NCBI RefSeq assembly: GCF_030384885.1
Contig: NZ_CP128613.1
Reading direction: 5' to 3' (one strand)
DNA length: 64,000 bases
Source: Escherichia coli
GTDB taxonomy: Bacteria > Pseudomonadota > Gammaproteobacteria > Enterobacterales > Enterobacteriaceae
A program made the position numbers. Position 1 is the stretch's first letter. The number at the start of each line of letters is the position of its first letter. Positions 47,256 through 50,200 of the stretch are shown in pieces.

Positions 47256-50200
47256 TAAAGGAAAGAACATTGCCCGGTCAGGATGGCCGGGCAAACAAGG
47301 CAGGATTAAATCCCTGGCTGCAGAATACGAATATTCATCTCCAGCACGTCGCCTTTTACGGCTTCGCTGTACGCCTTCATGTGCGGGGTTTGCAGGTGCG
47401 CTTCAAGGTGCGCGATGCTTTCCCACTGCTCAATCATCACGATAGAATCCGGTGCCATAGACTGGAAACTCACGCCAGCAGCGCAATCCACCATTGGCGC
47501 ATAGCCGTGGCAACCTTCTTCTTTCAGTACGGTTGGAACGATTTTAGCAAACTGATCCAACACTGCCTGACGGTGATGTTGACCAGGACGAGTACGGATT
47601 TCTGCGATTACTGTAATCATGGTTAACTCCTTCTAAAGCCAGAGCTCTAGTTAACCAAAAATTTCCACAAGATGCTTGCGATATTCTTCAGTATAGCGGG
47701 GAACATCAGGCATTTTTATCACGTCATTAGCGATAAATGTCGGCAGCGGCTCCATACCAAGGAATTGGTTTGCTTTATGGAATGGTAGATACACACCGTC
47801 AACGCCAACCCCGTGGAAGAACTGATCTTTTTCGGTGAAAGCTTCCATTGGTGCGTTCCAGGTCAGTGAAAGCATATATTTTTTGCCCTGTACCAGGCCG
47901 CCGGAACCGTATTTTTTTGATGGATCTTTGCGGGTACGACCATCGCTGGCATACAGAGTCCCGTGACCTTCGGTGAATACATCATCAATATATTTTTTCA
48001 CTGTCCACGGCGCGCCCATCCACCAGCCTGGCATCTGCCAGATCACCACATCAGCCCAGAGAAAGTTTTGTACTTCCGCTTTGACATCGTAGTCGCTGTC
48101 GGCGCGAACGATGCGGACATCATGCCCGAGGTCGCGCAGTGTGCCATCCGCGACTTCGGTCAGGGTGTCGTTCAGTTGACCATTGGAGTGGGCGAATTTT
48201 TTCGCGCCGTTGATAATCAGGATGTTGCTCATTTTTTAACCTCAAGGTGAGACGTTTGCCGACTATAGTACGTCACAGAGCGGTACGGTGAAATTAGCAA
48301 AATGTGCAAAGTCTTTTGCGAATTTAGCAAAAGTCTGATCTTGCTCCGATTCACCGATGCAGGATAAATATTTTCTGAAAATGACAATACTGATAGCCAT
48401 TCCTCATAATTCCTACTCGCACCGGATTAATTTACAGGTTTGGTTCGGTTTTTTGGGGATTAAAAATATGGCGTTGGATAAGTAAAAATGAAAATATCAA
48501 CGCGTCACGTTGATAATTATAAATGGATTTTTATGAGCGTGCTAACATATGTTAAAGCATAAAATTCAAACAATATTTGAAGCTCTGTTATATATAATGC
48601 TTACTTATTGGTTAATAGATGCTTTTTTTGCATTCAATAAGTATGACTGGATGCTTGAGTCGGGAGACAATATTTGCAGTACACCTTCCGTTTCAGGCGA
48701 AGATCGTATATTGCAAACAATGATTGCAGCATTTTTTCTTCTGACGCCACTTATTATTATTATCTTAAGAAAACTCTTTGTGCGAGAAATGTTTGAGTTT
48801 TGGTTATATGTAATCTCGCTCGTTATTTGTTTGGTTTGTGGTTGGTGGCTTTTTTGGGGACGGTTTATATTTTGCTATTAATAAAATCTATGAGAGTCGT
48901 TTTAACGGCTCTCATAGACAGAGAAGTTACCAGCTTACTTTCGCCTCAAATCCACCTTGTTCCGCATTCCCAAACTCAACATTCATGCCATGCAGCTTGG
49001 CGATTCGCTGGACAATTGAAAGCCCAAGTCCACTGCCGGTAGCGGTTTGTCCGGGTGGGCGATAGAAGCGTTCGCCAATTCTCGCCAGTGCCTCTGGTGT
49101 CACTCCGGGGCCGTTATCCCTCACGATGAAATTATCGGCATTCAGCGTGACGTCCACCACGCTACCTTGTGGACTGTAGCGCACGGCGTTATCCAGCAAA
49201 TTTCGCACCAACAAACTTAGCAATAGCGGTTGTCCGGTGCGTTTGATGCCGTGGGCATTGAGTGTCAGTCGCACGTCAATTTTCGCCTGCTGCGCCGTGT
49301 GGTAAATATCCATCACCGACGATTGCAGGAGATCTTCAAGCGGGATCTCCGCGACGTCCTGAAGGTTATCCAGTGAGTCCAGCCGCGATAGCGTGAGCAG
49401 TTGATCAACCAGACGAGTAGCACGATCGATTCCGGAATGTAATTGAAGCAGCGCTTTTTTCCGCGCCTGCGGATCATCGTCAGAGAGCTGCGCAACTTCG
49501 GTTTGCACTTTCAGCGCCGTTAACGGGCTACGAAGTTCGTGAGCTGCGTCGGAGGTAAAGCGTCGTTCACGAACCATCATCGCATGTGTGCGGGCGAACA
49601 GTTGATTCAACGACTCAACCAGTGGACGCACTTCGCTGGGTACGCCCGTCGCGTTTAGTGGTTTTTCCGAGTCAGGGTCACGCATACGTAGTGCCAGCGC
49701 CAGTTTGTTCAGCGGCGCGAGTTCACGACCCAGTAGTACCATCATGATGATTAACATAATCGGCAGTGCGACAAGCCACGGGATCAATTGCCCGGCAACA
49801 ATCGCCAGCGCCATGTCTTCACGGTATTCCCATTCCTGACCAACAACGATGCGATATTTGCCATCTGGTGAGGTCATCCAGACAAAACGCCAGGGATCGT
49901 CTTCACCGACCAGTTGCCCGTCAGCAAAACCTTCCCGCTGATAGCTATAAGGAATATCTTCTCCGTTATCGCCATCGTTAAGGACCATTCTGCCGTCGTG
50001 GGTAAAGATGGCAAAGGTCAGCGCATCGTCATCAACATGACCGTGTTTTAATTTATTTGGCGTCTGTGCCATGCGATCCGCCGCGTTGATTTCGTTGAGA
50101 TCCAGCGTACTTAACCGTTTGGCAAACAGCATCAGTTGGGTGTCGAACAACTCATCGACGTTATCCGTTGTTTGTTTCCAGGCGACAAAGCTGGAAAGCA

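What the first reader, a model, noticed from the sequence alone, without database searches (positions are those of the whole stretch)
48233..48548. Repeated motifs and an 8-bp inverted repeat in the mdaB–ygiZ intergenic region
The region contains near-direct repeats (aaattagcaaaatgtgcaaag / aatttagcaaaagtctg) and a perfect inverted repeat tatcaacg–5 bp–cgttgata (48495-48515) upstream of ygiZ. These could be transcription-factor sites (mdaB is stress-regulated; ygiZ regulation is poorly understood).
Basis: seen in the sequence. Interest (0 to 1): 0.15.

Follow-up and report, generated by a model that had tools for sequence, protein, structure and literature searches.

The report
mdaB marbox beside a T6SS-cassette scar
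The repeated motif is mainly the already-known stress-activator (MarA/SoxS/Rob) binding site of the E. coli mdaB promoter, while the small inverted repeat near ygiZ lies in a strain-variable leftover of a type VI secretion gene cassette and shows no convincing sign of function.

Summary
GAAATTAGCAAAA/GAATTTAGCAAAA lie at 48290-48302 and 48320-48332, and tatcaacg-5-cgttgata lies at 48495-48515.

The region is two unrelated pieces joined at 48336/48337.

Piece 1 (48233-48336) is the ancestral qseC-mdaB spacer. It is present in 5425 of 5426 complete E. coli genomes and in 80 Enterobacteriaceae species. Repeat copy 1 is a marbox, TTTGCACATTTTGCTAATTT on the mdaB strand. It is forward-oriented, overlaps the -35 and is centred near -43. 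It is 95% conserved across 76 non-Escherichia species. mdaB is a documented MarA/SoxS/Rob/RamA target.

Copy 2 is one arm plus the unconserved spacer of an invariant dyad, TTGC-N7-GCAAAAGAC, centred near -65. The copy-to-copy resemblance is therefore Escherichia-specific. What binds the dyad is unknown.

Piece 2 (48337-48548) is what remains of an hcp / lysozyme-like effector / ygiZ cassette inserted here:
- full cassette: 1262 genomes
- ygiZ only: 3334 genomes
- no cassette: about 830 genomes

The inverted repeat sits in this piece. It is not beyond chance (7.4% of shuffles), is imperfect in the majority K-12 allele, and is absent outside Escherichia. It probably lies in the ygiZ 5' UTR, downstream of the published BglJ-RcsB-dependent promoter.

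Verdict: ordinary and largely already known, with low interest.

The parts
48233..48264 (-). mdaB 5' UTR and start region. The Shine-Dalgarno GAGG and a conserved CAAAC lie around the inferred +1, at about 48257-48259.
   Evidence: In the alignment of 81 upstream regions, CAaAc and gAGGa are conserved. The transcription start is inferred from the -10 position and was not measured.
48265..48270 (-). mdaB -10 hexamer: TACTAT in E. coli, TAnnAT across genera.
   Evidence: The conserved column pattern is GTAnnAT.
48287..48292 (-). Weak -35-like hexamer TTCACC, 16-nt spacer to the -10, overlapping the marbox by 2 bp.
   Evidence: Read from the sequence; conserved as TT(C/T)ACC. The sigma-70 scan found no strong mdaB promoter, as expected for an activator-dependent promoter.
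48291..48310 (-). Marbox (MarA/SoxS/Rob site) TTTGCACATTTTGCTAATTT, forward orientation, centred about -43.
   Evidence: Two mismatches to AYnGCACnnWnnRYYAAAYn. Mean conservation is 0.95 in 76 non-Escherichia species. Literature places mdaB in the mar/sox/rob/RamA regulons.
48311..48334 (-). Invariant dyad read on the mdaB strand: left arm ACTTTTGC in E. coli (consensus ATTATTGC, 48327-48334), variable 7-nt spacer (48320-48326), right arm GCAAAAGAC (48311-48319). It is centred about -65.
   Evidence: Conservation is 0.99 and 0.98 for the arms and 0.48 for the spacer. The spacer does not extend the pairing beyond expectation (35 of 80 against 0.38 expected), and mean hairpin energy is -3.8 kcal/mol.
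48337..48416 (+). Left end of the inserted cassette. It is homologous to the hcp-upstream region of full-cassette strains and holds the candidate RcsB half-site AATTCCTA at 48409-48416.
   Evidence: BLAST to L003/L004 gives 96% identity up to 48409-48416. The no-cassette form L002 joins ...gcaaaagtct directly to the qseC end. The motif wwTTCykA matches, and the published site centre lies 65-68 nt upstream of the start.
48417..48546 (+). Segment specific to ygiZ-only strains, of unresolved origin and highly polymorphic. It probably holds the ygiZ core promoter (around 48440-48470) and the 5' UTR.
   Evidence: Found in 3334 of 5426 genomes in three allele classes: 99% or more (17), 90-95% (3010) and 60-80% (306). 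No significant match to the cassette interior.
48495..48515 (+). The 8-bp inverted repeat TATCAACG-CGTCA-CGTTGATA.
   Evidence: RNA hairpin energy is -8.1 kcal/mol on the + strand and -9.3 on the - strand. Allele comparison is; the shuffle test is.
48549..48881 (+). ygiZ (DUF2645, 110 aa), the third gene of the hcp / effector / DUF2645 cassette.
   Evidence: Pfam PF10840. Synteny in E. coli, Citrobacter, Pseudocitrobacter, Pectobacterium and Serratia.

Best explanation

(1) Positions 48233-48336 are the ancestral qseC-mdaB intergenic region and carry the mdaB promoter.
- Repeat copy 1 is a class II-type marbox. A monomer of MarA, SoxS or Rob (RamA in other genera) binds TTTGCAC...GCTAAT in forward orientation, overlapping a weak -35. 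It recruits RNA polymerase to the TACTAT -10 and switches on mdaB(-ygiN) under xenobiotic or oxidative stress.
- Immediately upstream is an invariant dyad, TTGC-N7-GCAAAAGAC, centred near -65. It behaves like a protein-binding site for an unidentified factor.
- Copy 2 is simply one arm of that dyad plus its free spacer, which in Escherichia happens to read like the marbox 3' half.

(2) Positions 48337-48548 are a leftover of an oppositely oriented hcp / lysozyme-like effector / ygiZ cassette. This cassette was inserted between qseC and the mdaB control region and later lost hcp and the effector.
- ygiZ is now transcribed from a BglJ-RcsB-activated promoter in this leftover.
- The 8-bp inverted repeat lies downstream of that promoter, in the ygiZ leader. 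It is most likely a fortuitous or weakly selected hairpin, not a regulator binding site.

Shown here: coordinates, conservation, population polymorphism, cassette synteny and the fold of the effector.
Inferred: the mdaB and ygiZ transcription starts, factor occupancy, and the lack of function of the inverted repeat.
For: - Locus polymorphism and junction at 48336/48337.
- In 76 of 80 species, qseC ends about 109 bp upstream of mdaB on the same strand.
- The footprint ATTaTTGC-N7-GCAAAAGACTTTGCACATTTTGCt.ATTT is invariant, while the spacer, the -35/-10 spacer and the UTR drift.
- The marbox consensus matches with two mismatches at 48292-48310 (-). The same scan also recovers a one-mismatch match at 42732-42750 (-), just upstream of the tolC ORF, which fits my recollection of the tolC marbox.
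- mdaB is named as a mar-regulon member, citing Martin and Rosner 2002 (PMC2989944). It drops 3.2-fold on ramA inactivation in Salmonella, whose box is identical (PMC3139621; L017 and L028). It rises on marA overexpression (PMC9948449).
- The dyad is not a hairpin or terminator.
- Cassette counts are 1262, 3334 and about 830 genomes.
- PygiZ is activated by BglJ-RcsB, and mutating the site abolishes activation (PMC3950696). A motif match lies at 48409-48416.
- The inverted repeat is not unusual, is imperfect in the 3010-genome K-12-type allele and degraded in the 306-genome allele. There is no Rfam match.
Against: - The marbox consensus is too degenerate to be significant alone: 22 matches in the window against 18 expected.
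- I could not retrieve the primary paper giving the mdaB marbox sequence, so identity with the published site rests on position, conservation and my memory of that work.
- In Klebsiella and Enterobacter the 3' half reads GCTCAT, a worse marbox. Meanwhile the consensus 'n' positions are invariant, which suggests another constraint overlaps the box.
- The transcription starts of mdaB and ygiZ were not available as coordinates.
- The inverted repeat shows one compensatory A-T to G-C change and one G-C to G-T change that would preserve pairing in + strand RNA. Some selection on a leader hairpin therefore cannot be excluded.
Confidence: 0.75

Rival explanations
1. The two near-direct repeats are a functional pair: two tandem sites for the same regulator, such as two marboxes or two SlyA/MarR-like TTAGCAA half-sites, acting together on mdaB or ygiZ. 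This is what the reader implied.
For: The repeat is rare by chance, occurring in 1% of shuffles. Copy 2 contains TTTTGCTAAAT, a good marbox 3' half. The GC-N7-GC architecture repeats 21 bp upstream of the marbox, on the same helical face.
Against: Seven of the shared positions fall in the dyad spacer, which is unconserved across genera (0.48). The position where a 5' half (GCAC) should lie is CAGA here and AAGA in no-cassette strains, and it lies across the island junction. In the other 76 species the spacer positions that would be A6 and C7 of a marbox are A in 6 and C in 29 of 80 sequences.
Confidence: 0.1
2. The whole invariant 44-bp block (48291-48334) is the footprint of a multimeric regulator, for example a LysR-type tetramer. 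Its recognition dyad T-N11-A would be centred at -65 and its activation site would lie over the -35. It acts instead of, or together with, MarA/SoxS/Rob.
For: The arms are invariant with a fixed 7-bp A/T-rich spacer and no hairpin signal. TGC-N7-GCA fits T-N11-A. The centre at about -65 is the usual LysR recognition-site position (my own knowledge). Marbox 'n' positions are invariant, while some consensus positions vary. In Neisseria, mdaB is activated by the LysR-type CrgA through two T-N11-A sites (PMC2724274).
Against: No LysR gene is adjacent. No E. coli regulator with this motif is known to me. Documented MarA, RamA and SoxS responsiveness already explains the proximal half.
Confidence: 0.25
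3. The 8-bp inverted repeat is a functional RNA hairpin in the ygiZ leader (about +17 to +40) that stabilises the mRNA or tunes translation.
For: The hairpin is stable for its size: -8.1 kcal/mol, z -3.3. The K-12 allele keeps pairing as G-U only on the + strand, and another allele shows one compensatory A-U to G-C change. Placing the BglJ-RcsB motif at 48409-48416 with the published 65-68 nt distance puts the start near 48475-48480, upstream of the repeat.
Against: Only four independent alleles exist, with one event each. Two pairs are broken in the 306-genome allele. The repeat is 34 nt from the start codon and does not sequester it in the predicted fold. It is absent from full-cassette strains and other genera. 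It is not beyond chance.
Confidence: 0.2
4. The inverted repeat is an operator for a dimeric transcription factor overlapping a second ygiZ promoter (ATGAAA-18-GATAAT, 48488-48517).
For: The right arm overlaps the GATAAT -10-like hexamer found by the scan. The symmetry is perfect in this strain.
Against: The majority allele breaks DNA symmetry (C to T in one arm only). There is no conservation outside Escherichia. That promoter scores only 9 of 12, and no wwTTCykA motif lies 65-68 nt upstream of its start. The half-site order ATCAA...TTGAT is the reverse of FNR-type sites (my own knowledge).
Confidence: 0.07
5. Read on the minus strand, the inverted repeat is an intrinsic terminator that stops transcription coming from the ygiZ/qseC side before it reaches the mdaB promoter.
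For: The terminator scan reports TATCAACGTGACGCGTTGATA followed by TTTTCATTTT on the minus strand. The fold energy is -9.3 kcal/mol.
Against: The stem has only 3 G-C pairs. In the K-12-type allele the minus-strand stem gains a C-A mismatch and the tail becomes CTTTCATC. A stronger convergent hairpin already lies between ygiZ and qseC at 48888-48917. No minus-strand gene ends here.
Confidence: 0.05

Closest known systems
Class II marbox promoters of the E. coli marA/soxS/rob regulon (e.g. fumC, micF, nfo, sodA, inaA; Martin et al. 1999, Martin and Rosner 2002; recalled from memory, papers not retrievable here)
   Same: A 20-bp asymmetric box matches AYnGCACnnWnnRYYAAAYn in forward orientation and overlaps a weak -35. 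It lies 20 nt from the -10. The gene is induced by MarA, SoxS, Rob or RamA.
   Different: Conservation is far tighter than the degenerate consensus requires, and it includes the 'n' positions. An invariant dyad abuts the box upstream. Many genera carry GCTCAT in the 3' half.
CrgA (LysR-type) control of mdaB in Neisseria meningitidis (PMC2724274)
   Same: The target gene is the same. A dyad of T-N11-A type lies upstream of the -35.
   Different: In Neisseria the regulator gene is divergent and adjacent and there are two footprinted sites. Here no adjacent regulator exists and binding is untested.
BglJ-RcsB-activated promoters (PMC3950696)
   Same: ygiZ is one of the ten published targets. A wwTTCykA match (AATTCCTA) lies in the spacer at a distance compatible with the published 65-68 nt.
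   Different: The published coordinates are in figures that were not available. The motif differs by one base from K-12 (AATTCTTA).
Orphan Hcp / effector / immunity modules of type VI secretion systems, and peptidoglycan glycoside-hydrolase effectors such as Tse3/Tsi3
   Same: A Pfam T6SS_HCP gene is followed by a lysozyme or lytic-transglycosylase-fold protein with an invariant Glu in AWIESGG. A small membrane protein gene abuts it. The module moves as a unit between genomic contexts.
   Different: The effector family has no Pfam or NCBIfam model. DUF2645 has no reported immunity role. Neither secretion nor immunity has been tested. In this window only the third gene remains.

Membership tests
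Marbox (MarA/SoxS/Rob binding site) | Match to the 20-bp asymmetric consensus AYnGCACnnWnnRYYAAAYn | tested here: met
   48292-48310 (-) has two mismatches. The match is not significant on its own: 22 found against 18 expected in 64 kb.
Marbox (MarA/SoxS/Rob binding site) | Orientation and distance compatible with a promoter class (class II: forward, overlapping the -35) | tested here: met
   Forward orientation, 2-bp overlap with TTCACC, 20 nt to the TACTAT -10, centre about -43. The transcription start is inferred, not measured.
Marbox (MarA/SoxS/Rob binding site) | Downstream gene responds to MarA, SoxS, Rob or RamA | tested here: met
   Literature: PMC2989944, PMC3139621, PMC9948449, PMC6561319.
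Marbox (MarA/SoxS/Rob binding site) | Direct binding by the activator, and loss of activation on mutating the box | not testable with these tools
   This needs EMSA, footprinting or promoter mutagenesis. The primary paper (Martin and Rosner 2002) was not retrievable.
Marbox (MarA/SoxS/Rob binding site) | Conservation in orthologous promoters | tested here: met
   Mean conservation 0.95 over 76 non-Escherichia species, against 0.64 for the adjacent spacer.
LysR-type regulator recognition site | Dyad with T-N11-A centred near -65 | tested here: met
   TGC-N7-GCA at 48316-48330, centre about -65, arms 0.98-0.99 conserved.
LysR-type regulator recognition site | Cognate LysR-type protein identified and shown to bind | not testable with these tools
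   No adjacent LysR gene. No candidate was identified.
Intrinsic (rho-independent) terminator | G+C-rich stem immediately followed by a U tract at the end of a transcription unit | tested here: not met
   Dyad at 48311-48334: mean -3.8 kcal/mol and no U tract directly after the stem. Inverted repeat at 48495-48515 on the minus strand: 3 G-C pairs, an interrupted T run that is degraded in the K-12 allele, and no gene ending there.
Conserved structured RNA (Rfam) | Match to a curated covariance model | tested here: not met
   No match at E of 1 or less in 47600-49000.
Palindromic operator of a dimeric transcription factor (the 8-bp inverted repeat) | Symmetry conserved in both arms across alleles and orthologues | tested here: not met
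   The majority allele has a one-arm change. The 306-genome allele has two broken pairs. The repeat is absent outside Escherichia ygiZ-only strains.
BglJ-RcsB box | Central wwTTCykA motif centred 65-68 nt upstream of the mapped ygiZ start | tested here: inconclusive
   The motif is present at 48409-48416 (K-12 equivalent). The published start coordinate is in a figure that is not held.
T6SS Hcp / effector / immunity cassette | Hcp-family gene, toxin-fold gene and small downstream gene conserved as a unit | tested here: met
T6SS Hcp / effector / immunity cassette | Secretion-dependent toxicity neutralised by the downstream protein | not testable with these tools
   Requires competition and co-expression experiments.

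The most novel reading that the evidence does not exclude
The invariant dyad TTGC-N7-GCAAAAGAC (48311-48334), centred about -65 and abutting the marbox, may be the recognition site of a still unidentified regulator. That regulator could be LysR-type, as with CrgA at Neisseria mdaB. It would co-control the quinone reductase gene mdaB with MarA/SoxS/Rob in all Enterobacteriaceae. This would explain why the block is far more conserved than a marbox needs to be.
Probability: 0.25. Interest if true: 0.4.

Novelty: already known. Interest (0 to 1): 0.15.

Why it matters
Very little changes for the flagged motifs themselves. The main one is the long-known stress-activator site of mdaB, and the inverted repeat has no support as a regulator site.

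Two by-products are modestly useful:
- The mdaB control region holds a second, invariant element of unknown partner. Mutagenesis or DNA-affinity capture could test it directly.
- The K-12 gene of unknown function ygiZ gains a testable hypothesis. It may be an orphan immunity gene left from an hcp / muramidase-like effector cassette that 23% of E. coli still carry intact. This also explains why the mdaB-ygiZ spacer is so polymorphic.

Tried and rejected
- Origin of the 132-bp ygiZ-proximal segment (48417-48548). Local and deletion-tolerant nucleotide alignments to the cassette interior of E. coli, Citrobacter and Pseudocitrobacter scored within the shuffle null, with z between -0.5 and 0.7.
- A tempting match of the inverted repeat to hcp codons 28-37 of C. 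werkmanii (AAATATCAAC...CACGTTGAT) was within that null. A second tempting match, to the effector 3' end (LPARDTDDYKFISYG against ISTRDVDNYKWIFFG, tblastn E 0.003 in E. whittamii only), was not supported by a family HMM against six-frame translations (best E 0.3). The origin is left unresolved.
- Small ORFs. The 42-aa ORF at 48357-48485 is frameshifted in K-12. The 24-aa upstream ORF at 48488-48562 has lost its start in E. whittamii and is truncated in the EC21Z allele. Both are rejected.
- A sigma-54 reading of TTGCAC-N4-TTGC is rejected: the GG is missing and the spacing is 2 nt short.
- PurR, FNR, Fur, MarR, SlyA and OxyR consensus comparisons (from memory) gave no convincing match.
- Reading the dyad as a second marbox is rejected, as is reading it as a terminator or hairpin.
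- There is no cross-genus similarity of hcp-upstream regions, and no Rfam family matches.
- Literature look-ups for the primary marbox papers failed. No supplement is held for the BglJ-RcsB paper. Searches for DUF2645 and for hcp+mdaB found nothing relevant.
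Full report
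**Observation**

The window is E. coli. Gene order is parE, ygiN (-), mdaB (47651-48232, -), ygiZ (48549-48881, +), then qseC and qseB (-).
- The direct repeat is GAAATTAGCAAAA (48290-48302) and GAATTTAGCAAAA (48320-48332).
- The inverted repeat is TATCAACG-CGTCA-CGTTGATA (48495-48515).

In dinucleotide-preserving shuffles of the 316 bp, a comparable direct repeat appeared in 1% of trials. An inverted repeat of 8 bp or more appeared in 7.4%, and the 64-kb window holds 38 such repeats. The direct repeat is moderately unusual. The inverted repeat is not.

**The spacer is a composite**

Megablast against 5426 complete E. coli genomes found the first 104 nt (48233-48336) in 5425 of them. At least 80% of the spacer was found in only 3320. 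Annotated examples show three forms of the locus:
- mdaB - hcp - 236-aa hypothetical - ygiZ - qseC (L003, L004)
- mdaB - about 318 bp - ygiZ - qseC (K-12 and this window)
- mdaB - 109 bp - qseC (L002)

In the last form...gcaaaagtct is joined through five bases to the qseC stop. The junction in the window is therefore 48336/48337.

Counts are 1262 genomes with hcp and the hypothetical gene, 3334 with the ygiZ-proximal 132 bp, and about 830 with neither (by subtraction).

A scan of one genome per species with MdaB returned 80 Enterobacteriaceae loci. In 76 of them qseC ends about 109 bp upstream of mdaB on the same strand. The full cassette sits at the same site in Citrobacter werkmanii and a Pseudocitrobacter genome. 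Escherichia whittamii has ygiZ only. The short form is therefore ancestral, and 48337-48926 is inserted DNA.

**The mdaB side (48233-48336)**

I aligned 125 nt upstream of mdaB from the window and the 80 species. The footprint is sharp: ATTaTTGC-N7-GCAAAAGACTTTGCACATTTTGCt.ATTT is essentially invariant. The 7-nt spacer, the -35/-10 spacer and the leader all drift.

| Element | Coordinates | Conservation across 76 non-Escherichia species |
|---|---|---|
| Marbox | 48291-48310 | 0.95 |
| Right dyad arm | 48311-48319 | 0.99 |
| Dyad spacer | 48320-48326 | 0.48 |
| Left dyad arm | 48327-48334 | 0.98 |
| -35/-10 spacer | 48271-48290 | 0.64 |

On the mdaB strand, 48310 to 48291 reads TTTGCACATTTTGCTAATTT. 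It matches the marbox consensus AYnGCACnnWnnRYYAAAYn with two mismatches. That consensus is too loose to be significant alone (22 matches against 18 expected). The same scan, however, gave a one-mismatch match at 42732-42750 (-), just upstream of the tolC ORF, which fits my recollection of the tolC marbox.

The conserved GTAnnAT marks the -10, which is TACTAT at 48270 to 48265. A weak TTCACC -35 (48292 to 48287) overlaps the box by 2 bp. The box ends 20 nt from the -10 and is centred near -43 relative to an inferred start at about 48257-48259. It reads in the direction of transcription. From memory of Martin et al. 1999, that is the class II arrangement.

Literature support:
- mdaB is named as a mar-regulon member (PMC2989944).
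- It is among the genes that drop most on ramA inactivation in Salmonella (3.2-fold; PMC3139621), and the Salmonella box is identical.
- It rises on marA overexpression (PMC9948449).

I could not retrieve the primary paper with the published box sequence.

**Copy 2 and the dyad**

Copy 2 (48321-48337) covers the dyad spacer, the left dyad arm and the first island base. Its likeness to copy 1 depends on spacer bases that are unconserved outside Escherichia. Where a marbox 5' half should lie, the sequence is CAGA here and AAGA in no-cassette strains. It is neither a second marbox nor a conserved repeat.

The dyad itself is real. The arms are invariant and the spacing is fixed at 7 bp with an A/T-rich centre. 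The spacer does not extend the pairing beyond expectation (35 of 80 against 0.38 expected). The mean hairpin energy is only -3.8 kcal/mol, and no U tract follows the stem. It behaves like a protein site, not like a terminator.

Its centre lies near -65, and TGC-N7-GCA fits the T-N11-A pattern of LysR-type regulators. In Neisseria the LysR-type CrgA activates mdaB through such sites (PMC2724274). The marbox 'n' positions are invariant, while two consensus positions vary (GCTCAT in Klebsiella and Enterobacter). This also hints at an overlapping constraint. I found no candidate protein, so this element remains unexplained.

**The ygiZ side (48337-48548)**

Positions 48337 to about 48416 match the hcp-upstream region of full-cassette strains at 96% identity. 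Positions 48417-48546 do not align to anything in the cassette.

This 132-bp stretch occurs in three allele classes:

| Allele class | Identity to window | Genomes |
|---|---|---|
| Window type | 99% or more | 17 |
| K-12 type | 90-95% | 3010 |
| Third type | 60-80% | 306 |

ygiZ is a published BglJ-RcsB target. Mutating its box abolished activation, and the box centre lies 65-68 nt upstream of the 5'-RACE start (PMC3950696). The central motif wwTTCykA matches AATTCCTA at 48409-48416 (AATTCTTA in K-12). That places the start near 48475-48480 and puts the inverted repeat in the leader. This placement is an inference, because the published coordinates are in figures that are not held.

**The inverted repeat across alleles**
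- The window and E. whittamii have 8 perfect pairs.
- The K-12 type has 7 pairs plus a G-T, which pairs only in + strand RNA.
- The third type has one compensatory A-T to G-C change and two broken pairs.

That amounts to one event of each kind in four alleles, which is too little to argue for structure.

The hairpin folds at -8.1 kcal/mol on the + strand and -9.3 on the - strand. The terminator scan flags the minus-strand version. Its stem is G+C-poor, its T run is interrupted and is degraded in K-12, and no gene ends there. No Rfam family matches. Full-cassette strains and other genera lack the element.

The most economical reading is a fortuitous or at most weakly selected leader hairpin.

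**What the insert is**

The 159-aa gene is a Pfam T6SS_HCP protein and ygiZ is DUF2645. The 236-aa protein has no Pfam or NCBIfam family.

Its 34 database relatives are all unnamed or mis-merged. In Pectobacterium (chromosome) and Serratia (a 75.6-kb record), the same three genes sit together in unrelated contexts.

This supports an Hcp / cell-wall-hydrolase effector / immunity module, with ygiZ in K-12-like strains as the orphaned third gene. No open-access paper mentions DUF2645. This interpretation is inferred, not tested.

**Verdict**

The transcription-factor idea is right for copy 1, a site that is already known. It is partly right for copy 2, which is the arm of an uncharacterised conserved dyad. 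It is unsupported for the inverted repeat. The finding is ordinary. The residual novelty lies in the unexplained dyad and in the cassette-scar origin of the spacer.

Noticed in passing
window 48337-48926; L003 3250-4781; L018; L077; L090-L093: An hcp / 236-aa lysozyme or lytic-transglycosylase-fold protein / DUF2645 (ygiZ) three-gene cassette is inserted between qseC and mdaB. In 5426 E. coli genomes, 1262 carry it whole, 3334 keep only ygiZ and about 830 lack it. The same cassette occurs at this site in Citrobacter and Pseudocitrobacter, and in other contexts in Pectobacterium and Serratia. ygiZ may be an orphan T6SS immunity gene.
   Followed up: partly
window 42732-42750 (-): ATGGCACGTAACGCCAACC matches the marbox consensus with one mismatch, just upstream of the tolC ORF (41166-42686, -). 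It fits the known tolC marbox (from memory) and served as a positive control for the scan.
   Followed up: no
window 48888-48917: A 9-bp inverted repeat, ctatgagag-12 nt-ctctcatag, lies between the convergent ygiZ and qseC ends. It is a likely bidirectional terminator at the right edge of the insert.
   Followed up: no
L087 about 575-592 (equivalent to window 48408-48416): Strain FDAARGOS_1290 carries a 9-bp tandem duplication, AATTCTTAC AATTCTTAC, exactly at the candidate RcsB half-site of the ygiZ promoter.
   Followed up: no
L086 748-1445: In strain EC20-72C-1 an IS1 element is inserted in the mdaB-ygiZ spacer. This is further evidence that the stretch tolerates disruption.
   Followed up: no
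window 48545-48516 (-): A strong sigma-70-like match lies on the minus strand (TTAGCA-18-TATAAT, 10 of 12), pointing from the ygiZ start towards mdaB. It is probably a spurious match in AT-rich DNA. No transcript evidence was sought.
   Followed up: no
window 48337-48400: The first 64 nt or so of the insert (GATCTTGCTC...GGATAAATATTTTCTGAAAATGACAATACTGATAGC) are nearly invariant among all E. coli alleles and in full-cassette strains, although the following 130 nt are highly polymorphic. The reason is unknown. C. werkmanii has a weak counterpart, ATTTTCTGTAACTGATAA.
   Followed up: partly
L005-L084, region upstream of mdaB: In 76 of 80 species qseB, qseC, mdaB and ygiN are co-directional, with only about 109 bp between qseC and mdaB. 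The oppositely oriented insert in most E. coli would block any read-through from qseBC into mdaB. Co-transcription in Salmonella is recalled from memory only.
   Followed up: no
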